A stretch of DNA of 64,000 nt from Planctomycetota bacterium (GTDB lineage: Bacteria > Planctomycetota > Phycisphaerae > WQYP01). Below are positions 26,295-46,083 of the stretch, one piece after another; the stretch's first letter is position 1, and each line of letters opens with the position of its first letter. A program made the position numbers and the translations under genes. Location of the stretch: contig JAKBMM010000001.1 in assembly GCA_021831565.1 (NCBI GenBank), forward strand, positions 80,321-144,320. The letters are read 5' to 3'. A model generated the notes under the pieces. It had not been told where the DNA came from. It made no database searches and was given only the letters and a program-made list of their open reading frames with translations.

Positions 26295-27374
26295 TTACTC
26301 CCAGTAATAGTTTCCATCATAATAATTACAATGCAAATTAGACGGGCCTTTCCACTCCACCGATCCGTCGTTATACAGAATATTCGCCCCCCGCGCGCCA
26401 CCCTGGCCCATGTGGTTGGATATGGGATAAGGTCCTGGCGAAAAAGAGGGGCCAAATCCCCAGTATGGCTTCGTCGCATTAGTAATCGTAAGATCGCTGC
26501 CCAAAATAGAATCAACCGAGCGATGGATATTGTTCTCCGATGTGAACGGATGCTGCGGATCAGGAAGATAGGTGCTTGCCGTCAGGCCCGTCCAGGGATT
26601 GGTTACATTTATGGTTGTGGATCCCGGAACCGCTCCTGTTCCTGACGGATTGGAAAACGAGCTCTGGGAAAATCCAAACCAGTAATTGTAGCTGAAGAAG
26701 ATGGCCTGTAGAAAAGCCGAACCATGCGCCGAAGTAAGGGTAGCTTGCCAAGCCGTAGGCTGTTCAAACCCATTGGCCACCCAGGTGTTGGGGTGAGTTA
26801 GATATGGCATCGGAATCCACGACATGGGAAAGGTTCGAGCTTCTTGCCCACCAGCATTGATTGGGCCGCCAACCAGACTGGTATTCCCATCAAGCGTGAA
26901 ATAACTCGACTGCGGGCAGAAAAAGACCGCCGGATTCTTGATGATGCCGGTGGTATACAACATGCCAAAACCAAATGGATAACCACCATAGTTATTCATC
27001 CCGCCACCGCCGCCGCTGCCGCTGGAGTTCATATTGCCGAACGGACCAAGGGCCTCGTGTATATATCCCCCCCCGTGATCCGCCGGAGTCCATCCCGCCG
27101 GATAAGGATAGTTTTTGTATGAAGCGTCATACTCGGCCACCCCCTGCCCGAGCGACTTCAAATTCGAAGAGCAGATCACCTGGTATGCCAGGTTTTTAGC
27201 CTTGGCCAGCGCGGGCAGCAACAGCGAGATCAGAATGGCGATGATCGAAATGACCACCAGCAGTTCAATGAGCGTGAATCCCGAGAGCCAGCGGGATCGG
27301 TTTTGGGGCTGGCGTCCGCGCCGGTCAATCGTATTGCCAGCGGATTCCTGCGTGTTGGTTGTGCGCGGCAGCAT
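26295..27374 (-). CDS. Prepilin-type N-terminal cleavage/methylation domain protein, DUF1559 (H-X9-DG) family, copy A
   Basis: [29 protein letters not shown] class-III signal / pseudopilin helix. C-terminal [21 protein letters not shown]9-DG motif. Strong AAGGAG Shine-Dalgarno. Gly-rich central insert. Confidence 0.8.
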
Positions 27375-28768
27375 GATAAGAACTCCTTCTTTACACTACT
27401 ATTGTCACAATATATCACCCTTTCTTACTGGGCGTCAAGTCAATTGCGGATTTTTTTTCTCACGAAATGGTACGGCTCGTCCGATATCCCCGACTTCTCG
27501 CCGTTCCGAGACAAATACCTAAACTCTTGCGCTCGTGAAGTTGTTACTCCCAGTAGTAGTTTCCATCATAATAATTACAATGCAAATTAGACGGGCCTTT
27601 CCACTCCACCGAGCCGTCGTTATATAGAATATTCGCCCCCCGCGCGCCACCTTGGCCCATATGGTTGGATATGGGATATGGTCCCGGCGTACCCAAACCA
27701 GCGCCGAATCCCCAGTACGGCTTTGTCGCATTAGTGATTGTAAGGTCGCTGCCCAAAATAGAATCAACCGAGCGATGAATATTGTTCTCCGATGTGAACG
27801 GATGCTGCGGATCCGGAAGATAGGTGCTTGTCGTCAGGCCCGTCCAAGGATTGGTTACATTTATGGTTGTGGATCCCGGAACCGCTCCTGTTCCTGACGG
27901 ATTGGAAAACGAGCTCTGTGAAAACCCAAACCAATAATTGTAGCTGAAATAGATAGCCTGTAAAAACGACGAACCATGCGCCGAAGTAAGGGTAGCTTGC
28001 CAGGCCGTAGGTTGTTCAAACCCATTGGCCACCCAGGTGTTGGGGTGGGTTAGATACGGCATCGGAATCCATGACATGGGAAAGGTTCGAGCTTCTTGCC
28101 CACCAGCATTGATTGGGCCGCCAACCAGACTGGTATTCCCATCAAGCGTGAAATAACTCGACTGCGGACAAAAAAAGACCGCCGGATTCTTGATGATGCC
28201 GGTGCTGTACAGCATGAAAAAACCAAATCCATAACCACCATAGGCATTCATCCCGCCACCGCCACCAGTCCCGCTCGAGTCCATACTGCCGAACGGAGCA
28301 CAGGCCTCGTGTATATACCCTCCCCCGTGATCCGCCGGACACCATCCCCCCGGGTAAGGATAGTTTTTGTATGAAGCGTTATACTCGGCCACCCCCTGCC
28401 CGAGCGACTTCAAATTCGAAGAGCAGATCACCTGGTATGCCAGATTTTTCGCCTTGGCCAGCGCGGGCAGCAACAGCGAGATCAGAATGGCGATGATCGA
28501 AATGACCACCAGCAGTTCAATGAGCGTGAATCCCGAGAGCCAACGGGATCGTTTATGGTACCTACTTCCCCGCCGGTCAATCGTATTGTTGGCGGATTCC
28601 TGCATGTTGGTTGTGCGCGTCAGCATGATAAGAACTCCTTCTCTTTACTACTATTGCCACAATGTATCACCCTTTCTTACTGGGCGTCAAGTCAATTGCG
28701 GATTTTTTTCCTCACGAATATGGTACGGCTCGTCCGATATCCCCGACTTCTCGCCGTTGCGGGAGACA
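26296..28768. repeat. Tandem direct duplication (two units of about 1.22 kb) comprising the DUF1559 gene plus its 5' UTR and promoter
   Basis: Unit 1 is about 26296-27515 and unit 2 about 27543-28768. Near-identical nucleotide stretches were visible by eye, including TACTCCCAGTA(A/G)TAGTTTCCATCATAATAATTACAATGCAAATTAGACGGGCC and the upstream TTCTTACTGGGCGTCAAGTCAATTGCGGATTTTTTT. Confidence 0.8.
27544..28626 (-). CDS. Prepilin-type N-terminal cleavage/methylation domain protein, DUF1559 (H-X9-DG) family, copy B
   Basis: About 90% identical to copy A over the whole length, with the same N-terminal pseudopilin helix and H-X9-DG C-terminus. Confidence 0.8.
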   Translation of the reverse strand: MLTRTTNMQESANNTIDRRGSRYHKRSRWLSGFTLIELLVVISIIAILISLLLPALAKAKNLAYQVICSSNLKSLGQGVAEYNASYKNYPYPGGWCPADHGGGYIHEACAPFGSMDSSGTGGGGGMNAYGGYGFGFFMLYSTGIIKNPAVFFCPQSSYFTLDGNTSLVGGPINAGGQEARTFPMSWIPMPYLTHPNTWVANGFEQPTAWQATLTSAHGSSFLQAIYFSYNYWFGFSQSSFSNPSGTGAVPGSTTINVTNPWTGLTTSTYLPDPQHPFTSENNIHRSVDSILGSDLTITNATKPYWGFGAGLGTPGPYPISNHMGQGGARGANILYNDGSVEWKGPSNLHCNYYDGNYYWE

Positions 28769-42002: not shown

Positions 42003-42215
42003 GGGGGTGGCTCCTGGTGTGACAATTTTTCGGGGTGGTACAATTTTCCGCTATTGGAACGGTATTCGGCCGGATCGCGGTTTCCGCGACCGGCTGACCC
42101 ATGCGGACGGGGTCGTCCGCGTTCCCGGGCGCCCCCGAAAATTGTCACACCCCTGGTTCCTGGCGGAACGCTTCTTGTTTGAGCGGTTCCCCGCCGGTAC
42201 TATAAAATTTTAATT

Positions 42216-44642
42216 ATGCACAAAAAACTGCTTTCTACCAGCGTTTATTTCCTGTGGACGTGGGCGGCGGTAGTACTGGCGGCAAGCGGCCTGTCCGCCG
42301 GCGGCGCGGTGCGGGCAGTCCCGATCGGCCAGGGGGCGCGCAGACCGGCAGCCATCGGGATGGCCGCCAGGGCGGATCGGCTATTGGGCCGGCAGGTCGA
42401 TCTCCAGTGCCCGGCGCAATTCATCACGGCCCTGGCGCTGGACCGGCAAGGCAATCTCTGGGTGGGAACGGAAGATCACGGTGTGTACCGCTATGACCCG
42501 CGGCTACCGGTCCGACGGCGGTGGACGCAATTCGGCGCCGCAAGCGGCGTGGGCGACAACAACGTATACGCCATTGTGTGCGACCGGCGCGGTCGCATTT
42601 GGGTGGGCACGCTCACGCATGGCGTGGCGGTTTATAACGGGCAACACTGGCGGCGGTACAACGTGATTCCGCATCCGCGCCGGAAGGTGCTTGCCGGGCC
42701 GATCGGATCGCGCATTTTTGCCATGGCGGCTAACCCCGTGAACGGGGATGTATGGATGGCCACGGACGCCGGTATAAGCCGGTATCGGGGGCGTACCGAT
42801 CGTTGGCAATACATCACTCGCGCCGGCGGTTTGCCCGGCGCGCAAGCGATGGCGCTGGCGTTGGGGCCGCACGGCCGGCTTTATGTAGCCTTGCAGGTGG
42901 GAGGCATTGCCATCTCCACTCCGGCGCGCCATTACCGAAACTGGCGTGTAGTTACCGGCCCGCGTGATATGCCGGGGCGGGCTACAGGCACGGGCTTGCC
43001 ATGCCGGATGATTAACGCCTTGCTGGTGCTGCCGGACGGGCATGTTTATGCGGCTACCGACAACGGCCTGGCCAACAGCGCCGATCATGGCCGGACATGG
43101 CGTTTTGTGCATGGTCGCGATTTTTCTCTGGAAATAGGCGGAATGGCCAAGCCGCCGCGCAATTTCCGCCGGCCTTCCGCGGCCGAGGAAGCGCGAATGC
43201 CGCCCGATGATTATGTCACCTGCCTGGCGGCGATGCCGGGAAGCGCCGTGCAGAATCTCTGGCTGGGCTGCCGGCGCAACGGTTTTGCGGATTTGCATGT
43301 AAATACAGGCCTGATGACTCCGGAGACTCTGTGGAAGACGCCCCCCGCCACGCGGCCGGCGGGGCCGGGAGCGGCCGGCCCCAAGCGGGCGGCCCCGGCG
43401 ATCGGTGCGCCGGCGGAACTGGACGTGGGAACCAATTTTATTTCCGCGCTGCTGGCGCTGCCGGACGGGTCCGTGATTGTCGGGCGCTACGGCGGCATGT
43501 TGACGCGCTACGAGCCGCGGGGTTATGCCAAGTCGTTGGGCGATGTTCTCGCCACCGGTTCCAACGGTAACGCCAGGTCCGTCGGCGAACGATTTCCAGC
43601 GCCGGCGGCAACCTGGACGCCGGCGGAGTTCGCCCGGGCACTGACACATCTCACCCGCCTGCGACAATCACTTCCCAGGAAAAGGACTCCAGCCTTTTTC
43701 CTGGGCGACGACTGGACGACCAAAGGGGATTGGATCGAACATTATGGACTGACGTATACCGATCTGTTCGGCACCAATGGTCAGTTTCACGATGTGCGTG
43801 ATTTCCAGGTGCAGGTTTATACCGGGCCACATGTCGGCGCCCGCGGCGCGGTGTATGGGTATACGATGTGGTTGCATACGAATAAACCGAATTGCCTGTT
43901 TGATCCGCAGACTGGAACACGACGCTACTCGGAAGTCAATGACGGCGGGTGGAGGTTGCCGTGGTACTGGCAGGGGCCGAACCTGTGGATCGCGGTGAAG
44001 TTTCCGAAGGGCAACTATGTCGCCGATTGGTATTTATACAACAAGGACGGTCACAGCGGCGGCAACCGGCGTCGCGATTTTGTGATGAATGTGCGACCTC
44101 CGGCGGCGAACCGACAGGCGGCAATGCGGGAAAAACCGCTGGATACCACACGGGTCGTGCACTTCTGGGGTGGAGTGTATAAGCGGTTTCTGGTGCGCGG
44201 TCCGGGGCGATACTGGTTTCACATCCGGCGGAATCATGGCGAATGCGTGACCGTGTCGGGCTTGATGATTGATCGTTGGAAGCGGAACAGCGCCGCCGGG
44301 AAGATCAAGGCGCCGGCGGCCTTGCGGCCGGCGGTGGCGTTGTGGCGGGCATGCCGTAGAAGAGCGCCGCCGGATGCGGCCTGGGCGGATCAGGCCCATG
44401 TATGCCAGGTGGAGTGTCTGCGGGCGGCGGTGGCGGCGGCGGCCCCCTGGCAGGCGCGATGGCGAAGTGTTCTGAACATCTGGTGGCGGCGGGATCGGGA
44501 GAATCTGCGCAAACTGATTCAGAAGAAGCTCTCCCAGGCGGTCCGGGCCGATCCACAATTGTACTCGTTCATTCTCAGTCCGGCCCAGCGGCACAAATGG
44601 TGGCCGAACAATCGGGTTCGGTCCGGCTCCCAAGCACGGTGA
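42216..44642 (+). CDS. Secreted protein with two-component-regulator-propeller (Reg_prop) type repeats
   Basis: Signal peptide MHKKLLSTSVYFLWTWAAVVLAASG. Repeated GNLWVGTEDHGVYRYD / GRIWVGTLTHGVAVYNG / GDVWMATDAGISRY beta-propeller blades. Long C-terminal region without a recognised domain. Confidence 0.6.
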   Translation: MHKKLLSTSVYFLWTWAAVVLAASGLSAGGAVRAVPIGQGARRPAAIGMAARADRLLGRQVDLQCPAQFITALALDRQGNLWVGTEDHGVYRYDPRLPVRRRWTQFGAASGVGDNNVYAIVCDRRGRIWVGTLTHGVAVYNGQHWRRYNVIPHPRRKVLAGPIGSRIFAMAANPVNGDVWMATDAGISRYRGRTDRWQYITRAGGLPGAQAMALALGPHGRLYVALQVGGIAISTPARHYRNWRVVTGPRDMPGRATGTGLPCRMINALLVLPDGHVYAATDNGLANSADHGRTWRFVHGRDFSLEIGGMAKPPRNFRRPSAAEEARMPPDDYVTCLAAMPGSAVQNLWLGCRRNGFADLHVNTGLMTPETLWKTPPATRPAGPGAAGPKRAAPAIGAPAELDVGTNFISALLALPDGSVIVGRYGGMLTRYEPRGYAKSLGDVLATGSNGNARSVGERFPAPAATWTPAEFARALTHLTRLRQSLPRKRTPAFFLGDDWTTKGDWIEHYGLTYTDLFGTNGQFHDVRDFQVQVYTGPHVGARGAVYGYTMWLHTNKPNCLFDPQTGTRRYSEVNDGGWRLPWYWQGPNLWIAVKFPKGNYVADWYLYNKDGHSGGNRRRDFVMNVRPPAANRQAAMREKPLDTTRVVHFWGGVYKRFLVRGPGRYWFHIRRNHGECVTVSGLMIDRWKRNSAAGKIKAPAALRPAVALWRACRRRAPPDAAWADQAHVCQVECLRAAVAAAAPWQARWRSVLNIWWRRDRENLRKLIQKKLSQAVRADPQLYSFILSPAQRHKWWPNNRVRSGSQAR

Positions 44643-44716
44643 TCCATATCGGCCCCGGCGCTATTTTCACCCCATCGCCGCGGACATGGCTATCGGGCGG
44701 GAACGTCTGGAGCGGA

Positions 44717-45010
44717 TTACGGTTCCACGCCCACCACCACCAGCGGCACGGCCGGCGTGCCGCGGCCCTGGCGCAGAAGATCGTAGAGGCCCCCTTCGTA
44801 GTAACCGACGCCGGATGACATCCGGGATTGCAGGGATTTCATGGGCAGAATCTCGATGCCCACGTCGATCACGTCACCGACAAAAAAGGCCATGTGCTTG
44901 ACGAACATGTCGTATGCGACAAACGCATACTTGCCAAACTGTATTTCGAGCGCAATTCGATCTTTGACGAAATCAGTTTGATTGTACGAATACATCGCCT
45001 GAATTTTCAT
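44717..45010 (-). CDS. Small hypothetical protein downstream of, and overlapping, the DNA methyltransferase (possible restriction endonuclease remnant)
   Basis: 97-aa ORF. Its ATG overlaps the methyltransferase stop (ATGA). GC is about 50% versus a flank of about 65%. It contains D...EIQFGK and DVIDVGIEILPMK segments that loosely resemble PD-(D/E)xK strands, which is not conclusive. Confidence 0.35.
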   Translation of the reverse strand: MKIQAMYSYNQTDFVKDRIALEIQFGKYAFVAYDMFVKHMAFFVGDVIDVGIEILPMKSLQSRMSSGVGYYEGGLYDLLRQGRGTPAVPLVVVGVEP

Positions 45011-45954
45011 CGATGACCACCGTTCGGCAGTGTAGGATCGTAAACGGGGCGTTCCATGGGACGGGTTTGCAGCACACCGGTCCGGTAGTCCGCAATACGG
45101 GCGCGGGCAATCTTTACATATTTCTCTTCGATATCACAGCCATAACCGTCGCGATTGTTCTTAATCGCGGCGATAACGGCGGAACCGACACCCATGTAGG
45201 GGTCGAAAACACCATCCCCGGCGCGCGTCATGGAGAGGACAAGCCGTTCAACAAGCTCCACGGGAAATTGGCAGGGATGAATCGTCTTTTCAACGTGGTT
45301 GGCTTTTACATTTGGAATAACCCACACGTCGCCGGGATTTTTCCCCAGCGGATTGCACGAGAACATACCGGCTTTGGGGCCTTTGAAGTATTTCTTTCCG
45401 GGGTATTTTGGTGGGATACGGATCGGGTCAACATCGAAGACAAACTGGTCGGACTTGGTAAACCACAGGATCGTTTCGTAACGTCCCGAAAAACGCCGCG
45501 TGCAATGCAGGCCGTGTTCGAAATGCCATATAATGCGGTTCCGTAGTTTCATTCCAAGCTTTTTGAAAATCGGGTGGAACATGATGTCCAGCGGGACCAC
45601 CTCGCCGTCGATGGTGATATGGTTGCCAACCTGCCAACAAATCGATCCCGCCGGTTTGAGCAGACGTACACAGTGGCTTATCACCCGTTCCTGTGTTTCG
45701 AGATAACAAGTCAGTGAATCCCGCCGCTCGTATTCTTTACCGATGTTGTAGGGGGGAGAGGTGACGATCAACTGGAAGCTCTGATCCGGAAATTTCGCCA
45801 TGAACTCGAGGTTGTCGGCACACGCAACAGCGTGCTTGCCGACACCGGAACCTAAGCTATTCCGTTTGATTTCGCCGATCGGAAAAAGCGTCTGGCCGAT
45901 CATGATGGATACCCCGAGTTCCAAAAGCCAGTGGTTAATATACCCGAATCTCAC
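45007..45954 (-). CDS. Beta-class DNA methyltransferase (SPPY motif IV preceding FxGxG motif I; probably N4-cytosine or N6-adenine specific)
   Basis: LIVTSPPYNIGKEY (motif IV) lies N-terminal to VFDPYMGVGSAVIAA (motif I), which is the circular permutation of beta-class amino-MTases. SPPY rather than DPPY favours N4-cytosine. Locally low GC. Confidence 0.8.
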   Translation of the reverse strand: MRFGYINHWLLELGVSIMIGQTLFPIGEIKRNSLGSGVGKHAVACADNLEFMAKFPDQSFQLIVTSPPYNIGKEYERRDSLTCYLETQERVISHCVRLLKPAGSICWQVGNHITIDGEVVPLDIMFHPIFKKLGMKLRNRIIWHFEHGLHCTRRFSGRYETILWFTKSDQFVFDVDPIRIPPKYPGKKYFKGPKAGMFSCNPLGKNPGDVWVIPNVKANHVEKTIHPCQFPVELVERLVLSMTRAGDGVFDPYMGVGSAVIAAIKNNRDGYGCDIEEKYVKIARARIADYRTGVLQTRPMERPVYDPTLPNGGHR

Positions 45955-46083
45955 CCCTGGAGGGATAGGCCGACTTCGCCGACGCTTTCAATTTCATTGC
46001 CCCATTGCAACCAGCCGGGGGGCGTGCCGGGCGAAAAATTCTAGGTACGGTCCATCACTGCATCGGCGGAGGGTGGCCCCGGC

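What the first reader, a model, noticed from the sequence alone, without database searches (positions are those of the whole stretch)
44643..45960. Low-GC restriction-modification islet: beta-class SPPY methyltransferase plus overlapping 97-aa downstream ORF
A 315-aa amino-methyltransferase has motif IV (SPPY) N-terminal to motif I (FDPYMGVGS). That is the beta-class permutation, and SPPY is typical of N4-cytosine enzymes such as the PvuII/BamHI methylases. It is followed by a 97-aa ORF whose start overlaps the methylase stop (ATGA). Both genes are about 50% GC in a flank of about 65%, indicating horizontal acquisition. 97 aa is too small for a canonical type II endonuclease, so the partner is either a truncated nuclease (leaving an orphan methylase) or an unusual small nuclease subunit. 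There is no C-protein or other specificity gene nearby.
Basis: partly seen in the sequence, partly recalled or inferred. Interest (0 to 1): 0.55.

Follow-up and report, generated by a model that had tools for sequence, protein, structure and literature searches.

The report
Decayed BstYI-type restriction-modification unit
This is a horizontally acquired BstYI-type restriction-modification gene pair in an uncultured Phycisphaerae bacterium; an in-frame 318-bp deletion has removed the front half of the restriction enzyme, leaving an intact, now solitary DNA methyltransferase, which is an ordinary way for such systems to decay.

Summary
A beta-class PF01555 methyltransferase (motif IV SPPY before motif I FDPYMGVGS) lies at 45007-45903(-). 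It is probably 298 aa, not 315. Its stop overlaps (ATGA) the start of a 97-aa ORF at 44717-45010(-).

The small ORF is a nuclease remnant. Residues 4-97 are 71% identical to residues 110-203 of the 203-aa endonuclease BstYI (RGATCY). In 72 of 80 related genome loci, and on a plasmid and a phage, a homologous methylase is followed directly by an intact 203-codon BstYI-family gene.

The window ORF keeps codons 1-8 (MKIQAMYS) joined to codons 115-203. This is an in-frame loss of 106 codons at a TATTC(G/C) microhomology that the closest full-length relative has at both breakpoints. Helix H1 and strand S1 of the conserved nuclease core are gone, so it is almost certainly not an endonuclease.

The methylase keeps 95 of 98 family-conserved positions and all its motifs. 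It most likely still methylates RGATCY, probably as N4-methylcytosine.

Acquisition by transfer is supported. GC is 52.8% against 62-64% in the flanking genes, and a sister lineage (93.8% identical flank) diverges exactly at the neighbouring gene's stop and carries unrelated DNA.

Verdict: an ordinary decaying type II R-M system, a new member of a known kind, of low interest.

The parts
45007..45903 (-). Methyltransferase gene, 298 aa from ATG 45903 (the longest ORF, from GTG 45954, would give 315 aa). Beta-class amino-methyltransferase of the family that partners BstYI-type endonucleases. Intact.
   Evidence: PF01555 E 4.5e-52. PADLOC MTase_II E 1.4e-83. 57-73% identical to methylases sitting directly upstream of 203-aa BstYI-family genes. 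95 of 98 columns that are at least 95% conserved are kept, and the 3 changes are conservative. The 298-aa start is supported.
45748..45759 (-). Motif IV, SPPY (residues 49-52 of the 298-aa form): the catalytic motif.
   Evidence: Coordinates. SPPY is present in 66 of 66 family members taken from related loci and in the plasmid and phage copies.
45181..45207 (-). Motif I, FDPYMGVGS (residues 233-241): AdoMet binding. It lies C-terminal to motif IV, which is the beta-class order.
   Evidence: The order definition (IV...TRD...X-I) is quoted in PMC2890505.
45007..45010 (-). ATGA overlap of the methylase stop codon and the remnant's start codon. This is the original M-R junction of the module.
   Evidence: The same junction type occurs in intact modules, for example L020 CATCGATGAGAATC against window CATCGATGAAAATT.
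44717..45010 (-). R' : 97-aa remnant of a 203-codon BstYI-family restriction endonuclease gene. It consists of codons 1-8 fused in frame to codons 115-203.
   Evidence: Residues 4-97 match BstYI 110-203 at E 6.5e-45, 67/94 identical. Pfam PF09195 positions 70-163/163.
44987..44992 (-). Deletion junction: TAT TCG (Tyr7-Ser8), followed directly by TAC AAT CAA (Tyr-Asn-Gln, canonical codons 115-117).
   Evidence: The closest full-length relative (L094) has TAT TCG at codons 7-8 and TAT TCC at codons 113-114. A 318-bp in-frame deletion between these two copies yields the window sequence.
44939..44974 (-). Retained catalytic motif D13-X8-E22-X-Q24. It corresponds to BstYI D119/E128/Q130 by the alignment, and has the same spacing as BglII D84/E93/Q95.
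   Evidence: Coordinates. These positions are invariant in the family alignments. The catalytic role of these residues is from my knowledge of the BglII/BstYI structure papers and was not re-derived here.
45904..46083 (-). Upstream intergenic stretch and left edge of the islet. Similarity to the sister lineage stops at 46082, the stop codon of the MFS transporter gene.
   Evidence: L090 (93.8% identical over window 51125-46082) diverges at this point and carries an unrelated 266-aa ORF.
44643..44716 (.). 74-bp spacer between the remnant's stop codon and the stop codon of the convergent 808-aa gene. The right edge of the islet lies here or nearby but was not mapped.
   Evidence: Sister-lineage contigs end before this point.

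Best explanation
The locus is a two-gene BstYI-type type II restriction-modification module, with the methylase first and the endonuclease translationally coupled behind it. It entered this Phycisphaerae lineage by horizontal transfer and has lost its endonuclease.

A 318-bp in-frame deletion, most likely slippage or illegitimate recombination between two TATTC(G/C) copies at codons 7-8 and 113-114, removed codons 9-114 of the 203-codon gene. The 97-aa product keeps the D-X8-E-X-Q catalytic strands and the C-terminal DNA-contact region. It lacks strand S6, helices H2 and H1, and strand S1 of the fold. It therefore cannot form the conserved nuclease core and is inferred to be inactive.

The methylase is intact and now solitary. 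It is inferred still to methylate RGATCY sites across the genome, most probably as N4-methylcytosine on the GATC cytosine. This would incidentally protect the host from incoming BstYI/BamHI/BglII-type enzymes.

Shown: the homology, the canonical 203-aa architecture, the deletion and its junction, the intact methylase motifs, and the insertion site relative to a sister lineage. Inferred: loss of nuclease activity, continued methylase activity, the target sequence and base, and whether the deletion happened in this host or before transfer.
For: 1. R' matches only the C-terminal half of the family: Pfam 70-163/163, PADLOC REase_II 110-203/203, and BstYI 110-203 at 71% identity.
2. The canonical unit is M followed by a 203-aa R. 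This holds in 72 of the 80 genome loci fetched, on Sphingobium plasmid p2 and Burkholderia phage BcepIL02, and beside the closest methylase relatives L094 and L097.
3. Window codons 1-8 (MKIQAMYS) match the canonical N-terminus MKIxAxYSHLNG. The rest matches from canonical codon 115 on. L094 carries TATTC at both breakpoints.
4. No N-terminal half is present in any frame of the window.
5. BstYI topology is S6-H2-H1-S1-S2-S3-H4-S4-H3-S5, and the common conserved core is H1 plus S1-S4 (PMC1874628). The elements predicted in R' correspond to S3, H4, S4, H3 and S5 only. The fragment folds with low confidence: pLDDT 49.7, pTM 0.34.
6. The methylase keeps SPPY and FDPYMGVGS and 95 of 98 conserved columns.
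7. Independent decay of R with M retained recurs in the family. Frameshifts occur in L002-L006, L035, L039, L047 and L072. N-terminal loss occurs in L034, L058 and L066. L098 has a complementary in-frame deletion of codons 105-194.
8. The deletion allele is not an assembly artefact. The identical 97-aa protein is on 21 contigs from four sources, and three independent assemblies match the window at 99.86% or better.
9. Horizontal origin is supported by GC of 52.8% against 62-64% in the flanks, and by the sister lineage that lacks the islet at the same site.
Against: - No activity data exist for either protein.
- R' is still an intact ORF with its original start and translational coupling. It keeps 49 of 50 family-conserved C-terminal positions, so selection for some residual role cannot be excluded. 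Recency explains the same facts.
- The ancestral full-length allele was not found. The nearest relatives are 89% identical (R, C-terminal half) and 71% identical (M). The breakpoints are therefore inferred from relatives, and the deletion could have happened before arrival.
- A second, intact endonuclease elsewhere in the genome cannot be excluded from one 64-kb window.
- The N4-cytosine assignment rests on SPPY, on the report that BstYI is insensitive to 6mA, and on 'possibly N4mC' for M.BstYI. Several characterised RGATCY systems make m6A instead.
Confidence: 0.88

Rival explanations
1. The 97-aa protein is a functional miniature or unusual endonuclease subunit. On this reading the islet is still a working restriction-modification system.
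For: It keeps the D-X8-E-X-Q motif and the family-invariant C-terminal residues. It has an intact ORF with translational coupling to the methylase. RGATCY is under-represented in the window, 37 observed against 58 expected.
Against: Helix H1 and strand S1 of the common conserved core are missing, as are S6 and H2. All intact relatives are 203 aa. The deletion junction shows it is a derived lesion. The fragment is predicted with low confidence. The RGATCY depletion (ratio 0.63) is weaker than that of many other palindromes, for example CAGCTG at 0.13 and GGGCCC at 0.14, so it is not specific.
Confidence: 0.03
2. The remnant is retained for a non-nuclease role. One example is a dominant-negative partner that forms dead heterodimers with incoming BstYI-type enzymes. 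Another is a DNA-binding fragment acting on GATC-containing sites.
For: The ORF is intact and in frame. Conserved C-terminal positions are kept at 49 of 50. The allele is fixed in every sampled assembly of the species.
Against: The sampled population is nearly clonal (99.86% identity or more, with 0-2 differences in R'), so fixation and conservation carry no weight. Other decayed copies keep different pieces. L098 keeps the N-terminal half instead, and others are frameshifted, so no particular fragment is recurrently preserved. The isolated fragment is not predicted to fold.
Confidence: 0.05
3. The methylase is an N6-adenine enzyme making RG(6mA)TCY, as automatic annotation says, rather than an N4-cytosine enzyme.
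For: JGI names it 'adenine-specific DNA-methyltransferase'. The best NCBIfam and PDB matches are adenine enzymes: PRK11524, and M.RsrI at E 1e-33. Characterised RGATCY systems in Acinetobacter A118, a Nitratiruptor phage, Azospirillum and Casimicrobium are m6A.
Against: The NCBIfam hit is far below its cut-off (111 against 292 bits). Motif IV is SPPY in all 66 family members examined, not the DPPY of M.RsrI. BstYI, the 71%-identical reference for the partner nuclease, is reported as not blocked by 6mA, so adenine methylation would not protect against it. NEB authors list M.BstYI as possibly N4mC alongside M.BamHI and M.BglII.
Confidence: 0.25
4. The short ORF is an assembly or binning artefact, for example a collapsed or chimeric contig, and the real genome has a full-length gene.
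For: The window comes from metagenome-type data. Same-species contigs break about 2.6 kb away, near 42020-42063.
Against: The identical junction appears in independent assemblies from different samples and pipelines: GCA_027429315.1, GCA_027429195.1 and ERZ27236945. The exact 97-aa protein is on 21 contigs from NCBI, JGI, Logan and ENA. No full-length protein more than 85% identical to R' turned up in the protein search.
Confidence: 0.02

Closest known systems
BstYI restriction-modification system of Geobacillus stearothermophilus Y406 (R.BstYI, PDB 1sdo/1vrr/2p0j; recognises R^GATCY)
   Same: R' residues 4-97 are 71% identical to R.BstYI residues 110-203, including the D-X8-E-X-Q motif. The partner is a beta-class SPPY methylase. 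The family is PF09195.
   Different: The window copy lacks the equivalent of residues 9-114, so it is not a complete enzyme. The host is a Phycisphaerae bacterium, not a Firmicute. The target sequence and the methylated base are inferred, not measured.
Intact M-then-R BstYI-family modules on Sphingobium sp. CAP-1 plasmid p2 and Burkholderia phages BcepIL02 and DC1, and in MAGs such as L094 and L097 (Phycisphaerae)
   Same: Same gene order and strand, with overlapping or abutting genes. The methylases are 65-71% identical. The closest full-length R (L094) is 89% identical over the retained part.
   Different: Those carry the full 203-codon endonuclease gene. The window has the 97-codon deletion derivative.
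Solitary (orphan) type II methyltransferases that arise by loss of the cognate endonuclease
   Same: An intact methylase next to a recognisable endonuclease remnant. This is the degradation route discussed by Oliveira, Touchon and Rocha 2014 (PMC4176335).
   Different: That study found in-situ degradation to be the minority route: 9-13% of pan-genome families contain both states. Here the remnant makes the origin explicit. No regulatory role, as in Dam or CcrM, is indicated.
L098 (GCA_027357495.1): the same module with a 113-aa endonuclease remnant
   Same: The methylase is 69% identical. The remnant also starts at the overlapped M stop and is also an in-frame internal deletion.
   Different: The deletion is complementary. 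Codons 105-194 are lost, so the N-terminal half is kept and the catalytic half is gone. It is therefore an independent event.

Membership tests
BglII/BstYI family type II restriction endonuclease (Pfam PF09195) | Significant sequence match to the family profile or to a solved member | tested here: met
   PF09195 E 5e-24, 85 bits against a cut-off of 26. BstYI 1sdo E 6.5e-45. PADLOC REase_II E 1.3e-47.
BglII/BstYI family type II restriction endonuclease (Pfam PF09195) | Complete domain, including the common conserved core (helix H1 and strands S1-S4) of the S6-H2-H1-S1-S2-S3-H4-S4-H3-S5 topology | tested here: not met
   Only profile positions 70-163/163 and BstYI residues 110-203/203 are covered. 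Predicted elements correspond to S3, H4, S4, H3 and S5, compared with the topology in PMC1874628. 106 codons are missing relative to 203-aa relatives.
BglII/BstYI family type II restriction endonuclease (Pfam PF09195) | Catalytic D-X8-E-X-Q motif | tested here: met
   D13, E22 and Q24 are present and align with family-invariant columns.
BglII/BstYI family type II restriction endonuclease (Pfam PF09195) | Sequence-specific DNA cleavage (RGATCY or a related site) | not testable with these tools
   This needs expression and a cleavage assay. Inactivity is inferred from the missing core.
Beta-class N4/N6 amino DNA methyltransferase (Pfam PF01555) | Profile match above the gathering score | tested here: met
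   177.6 bits against 26.7, residues 61-283 of the 315-aa form, profile positions 2-219/221.
Beta-class N4/N6 amino DNA methyltransferase (Pfam PF01555) | Circular permutation with motif IV ((S/D)PPY) N-terminal to motif I (FxGxG-type) | tested here: met
   SPPY is at residues 49-52 and FDPYMGVGS at residues 233-241 of the 298-aa form. The class definition is in PMC2890505.
Beta-class N4/N6 amino DNA methyltransferase (Pfam PF01555) | Family-conserved residues intact (no disabling lesion) | tested here: met
   95 of 98 columns conserved at 95% or more are kept. The three changes (L109F, Y154F, L158V) are conservative. There is no frameshift or internal stop.
N4-cytosine-specific subgroup (M.BamHI, M.BglII, M.BstYI type) | The product is N4-methylcytosine rather than N6-methyladenine | not testable with these tools
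   Indirect support only: SPPY in 66 of 66 family members, BstYI reported insensitive to 6mA, and M.BstYI listed as 'possibly' N4mC.
Complete type II restriction-modification system | Both an intact methyltransferase and an intact cognate endonuclease | tested here: not met
   The methylase is intact. The endonuclease is reduced to 97 of 203 codons. No other BstYI-family sequence is in the window.
Solitary methyltransferase derived from a degraded R-M system | An intact methylase adjacent to a recognisable endonuclease pseudogene or remnant | tested here: met
Solitary methyltransferase derived from a degraded R-M system | No functional cognate endonuclease elsewhere in the genome | not testable with these tools
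   Only 64 kb of the genome is available. None was found in it.

The most novel reading that the evidence does not exclude
The in-frame 97-aa remnant is not junk. On this reading it is kept and translated through its original coupling to the methylase as a catalytically dead BstYI fragment. It would interfere with incoming BstYI-, BamHI- or BglII-type endonucleases by forming poisoned heterodimers or occupying sites. Together with the methylase, this would make a two-layer 'vaccine' against re-invasion by related selfish R-M modules.
Probability: 0.04. Interest if true: 0.6.

Novelty: new member of a known kind. Interest (0 to 1): 0.2.

Why it matters
- Annotation. Pipelines will label the 97-aa ORF 'BglII/BstYI family type II restriction endonuclease' and count a complete R-M system in this organism. 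In fact only a methylase is likely to be active.
- R-M decay. The locus is a clean, base-resolved example of how a type II system decays to a solitary methylase: a microhomology-flanked in-frame deletion. A large survey judged this route uncommon (PMC4176335).
- Methylome prediction. It predicts an RGATCY methylation mark, probably m4C, in an uncultured Phycisphaerae lineage. This can be checked in long-read metagenomes and could help methylation-based binning.
- Beyond these points it is an ordinary finding.

Tried and rejected
1. A widespread family of naturally short BstYI-like proteins. The first protein search listed only 97-169-aa hits, with recurring lengths of 109, 111, 144 and 155 aa. 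In genome DNA the same genes are open for 203 codons in 72 of 80 loci. Many start with GTG or TTG, and the recurring short lengths are the first in-frame ATG. The short entries are therefore mostly gene-calling and ranking effects. Rejected.
2. The N-terminal half encoded elsewhere or in another frame. None was found in the window.
3. A longer ORF from an alternative start. Impossible.
4. Mobile-element signatures at the islet edges. Only short repeats at chance level were found.
5. Promoter and terminator scan. Nothing beyond shuffled expectation.
6. RGATCY avoidance as a trace of past restriction. The site is depleted (ratio 0.63), but less so than many other palindromes, so this is uninformative.
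7. Selection test within the species. Carriers are 99.86% identical or more, with 0-2 differences in R' and none in M, so there is no power.
8. Mapping the right-hand islet edge in sister lineages. The relevant contigs end at the LutC gene.
9. Fold search with the fragment model. Not run, because the model confidence was too low to be meaningful.
10. Identity of the 266-aa ORF occupying the site in the sister lineage. No Pfam or PADLOC match.
11. Separating m4C from m6A by comparison with plasmid and phage homologues. All carry SPPY, so this gives no discrimination.
Full report
**1. What is in the sequence**

One runs 45007..45954 (315 aa from GTG). The other runs 44717..45010 (97 aa from ATG). 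The stop codon of the first and the start codon of the second overlap as ATGA at 45010-45007.

The larger protein is a PF01555 N6_N4 DNA methylase (E 4.5e-52). SPPY lies at 45748-45759 and FDPYMGVGS at 45181-45207, so motif IV precedes motif I. That is the beta-class order, as defined in PMC2890505.

The start is more likely the ATG at 45903 (298 aa). The nearest homologues are 297-299 aa long and cover 98-100% of that form. An independent gene call in a 99.86%-identical assembly also gives 298 aa.

The two genes have 52.8% GC. The flanking genes have 63.7% and 62.3%, and the window as a whole 59.2%. Only 5.3% of same-size windows are as low.

**2. What the 97-aa ORF is**

However, it matches only the back half of that nuclease:
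- Pfam Endonuc-BglII, positions 70-163 of 163.
- PADLOC REase_II, positions 110-203 of 203.
- BstYI (PDB 1sdo, 203 aa), residues 110-203, E 6.5e-45, 67 of 94 identical.

The reading frame is closed 44 codons upstream with no start codon in between. tblastn with longer relatives finds no N-terminal half anywhere in the 64 kb.

**3. The canonical architecture**

They come from many phyla, and the top 80 loci are 73-82% identical to the ORF.

In 72 of the 80 fetched loci the gene is open for 203 codons. It usually lies directly behind, and often overlaps, a methylase that is 57-73% identical to the window's, on the same strand. The same M-then-203-aa-R pair is annotated on Sphingobium sp. CAP-1 plasmid p2 and in Burkholderia phage BcepIL02.

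The first protein search appeared to show a family of short proteins of 109, 111, 144 and 155 aa. These lengths turned out to be the first in-frame ATG of genes that really start with GTG or TTG. The ranking also favoured short entries. I reject that lead.

**4. The lesion**

Full-length relatives begin M(K/R)IxxxYSHLNG. About 105 residues later they read ...PI(F/Y)SYNQTDFVKDR. The window ORF reads MKIQAMYS|YNQTDFVKDR.

Its first eight residues fit the N-terminus of the closest relatives: L094 LKIRAVYS and L098 MKIKALYS. The rest continues from canonical codon 115.

In L094, the nearest full-length gene (89% identical over the retained part), codons 7-8 are TAT TCG and codons 113-114 are TAT TCC. 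The window has TAT TCG at 44992-44987, followed by TAC AAT CAA. The simplest history is a 318-bp in-frame deletion of codons 9-114 between the two TATTC copies. Because of the repeat, the breakpoints could equally be placed two codons earlier.

The M-R junction itself (CATCGATGAAAATT) is the ancestral one. Compare L020, CATCGATGAGAATC.

**5. Consequence for the protein**

Niv et al. give the BstYI topology as S6-H2-H1-S1-S2-S3-H4-S4-H3-S5. They define the common conserved core of type II endonucleases as H1 plus S1-S4 (PMC1874628).

The AlphaFold model of the fragment has low confidence (mean pLDDT 49.7, pTM 0.34). Its elements are E19-24, H30-44, E48-54, H57-64/H72-81 and E89-95, which correspond to S3, H4, S4, H3 and S5. 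S6, H2, H1 and S1 are therefore missing.

The catalytic D13-X8-E22-X-Q24 motif is retained. The assignment of these residues to BstYI D119/E128/Q130, and their roles, comes from my knowledge of the structure papers.

Without half of its core, the product is very unlikely to fold or cleave DNA. This is an inference, not a measurement.

**6. The methylase**

Against 70 family members it keeps 95 of 98 columns that are at least 95% conserved. The three changes (L109F, Y154F, L158V) are conservative. This count sits in the upper tail of the family, which may be a faint hint of relaxed constraint, but nothing is disabling.

SPPY is present in all 66 members taken from related loci, and in the plasmid and phage copies.

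I infer that the methylase is active on RGATCY. The evidence for N4-methylcytosine is indirect:
- The motif is SPPY rather than DPPY.
- BstYI is reported as not blocked by 6mA (PMC10734518).
- NEB authors list M.BstYI as possibly N4mC, beside M.BamHI and M.BglII (PMC2890505).

Several characterised RGATCY systems make m6A instead. The JGI name for this protein is 'adenine-specific'. I therefore give the adenine alternative about one chance in four.

**7. Origin and age**

EF-Tu in the window is 93-94% identical to Phycisphaerae/Planctomycetes MAG proteins, so the host is an uncultured Phycisphaerae bacterium.

Three independent same-species assemblies are 99.86-99.99% identical to the window and carry the identical M plus 97-aa pair. 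The exact 97-aa protein is recorded on 21 contigs from four sources. The deletion is therefore real and fixed in the sampled population.

A sister lineage (L090, GCA_021790475.1) is 93.8% identical across the MotA-to-MFS flank. It diverges exactly at the MFS stop codon (window 46082) and carries an unrelated 266-aa ORF there. That ORF has no Pfam or PADLOC match. Together with the GC dip, this supports horizontal acquisition at a variable spot.

The surrounding genes encode an MFS transporter, an S49 peptidase, LutC, OmpA and the EF-Tu/ribosomal cluster. These are housekeeping genes, not a defence island.

The remnant keeps 49 of 50 conserved C-terminal columns. This fits a recent deletion. 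It would equally fit selection, and the near-clonal sample cannot separate the two.

The pre-deletion allele and the donor were not found. The next-best R is 89% identical and the next-best M 71%. The deletion could therefore have happened before arrival.

**8. Context in the family**

Decay of R with M retained recurs:
- Frameshifts in L002-L006, L035, L039, L047 and L072.
- N-terminal loss in L034, L058 and L066.
- In L098, among the window's closest methylase relatives, a complementary in-frame deletion removes codons 105-194 and leaves a 113-aa N-terminal remnant.

Different lineages keep different pieces, so there is no sign that a particular fragment is preserved for a function.

Oliveira et al. 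concluded that solitary methylases only rarely come from in-situ degradation (PMC4176335). This locus is a clear instance of that minority route, or of transfer of an already degraded unit.

**9. Verdict**

The locus is a decayed BstYI-type R-M module, a new member of a well-known kind.

Its value is mainly in correct annotation and in a testable methylome prediction. Interest is low, at 0.2.

The most novel reading not excluded is that the translated remnant acts as a dominant-negative decoy against related incoming endonucleases. I give that about 4%.

Noticed in passing
L098:5894-6235 (GCA_027357495.1, DAHVUP010000014.1): A related M-R module (methylase 69% identical) carries a 113-aa endonuclease remnant. 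It was made by a complementary in-frame deletion of codons 105-194, so the N-terminal half is kept and the catalytic half is lost. This is an independent inactivation of the same gene.
   Followed up: partly
L090:5321-6121 (GCA_021790475.1), equivalent to the window site just below 46082: In a sister lineage (93.8% identical flank), the spot occupied here by the M-R' islet holds an unrelated 266-aa ORF with no Pfam or PADLOC match. The site downstream of the MFS gene appears to be a small variable-cargo spot.
   Followed up: partly
related loci L007-L088: The BstYI-type M-R pair is unusually widespread and conserved for a restriction enzyme. The top 80 loci are 73-82% identical over the C-terminal half and span many phyla. 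Copies also sit on a Sphingobium plasmid and in Burkholderia phages BcepIL02 and DC1.
   Followed up: partly
protein database entries P0002-P0120 against loci L009, L026, L046, L055, L073: Many public protein entries of this family are 109, 111, 144 or 155 aa long. In several genome loci these lengths are the first in-frame ATG of 203-codon genes that start with GTG or TTG, so the entries look like miscalled starts. This makes intact enzymes look truncated.
   Followed up: yes
window 26295-27374 (-) and 27544-28626 (-): Two tandem ORFs of about 360 aa each carry a prepilin-type N-terminal methylation motif (PF07963). They lie in the lowest-GC stretch of the window (about 51-52%).
   Followed up: partly
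whole window: Several palindromic hexamers are far more depleted than RGATCY. CAGCTG is 1 observed against 7.7 expected, and GGGCCC is 2 against 14.8. This may reflect other present or past restriction systems in this lineage.
   Followed up: no
window about 42020-42063 (ends of L091 and L092): Two same-species assemblies have contigs that end between the LutC gene and the 808-aa Reg_prop gene, about 2.6 kb from the islet. This hints at strain heterogeneity or an assembly problem in this neighbourhood.
   Followed up: no
window 42216-44642 (+): The 808-aa ORF convergent with the remnant matches only the short Reg_prop (two-component regulator propeller) repeat. It is otherwise uncharacterised and has no PADLOC hit.
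   Followed up: no
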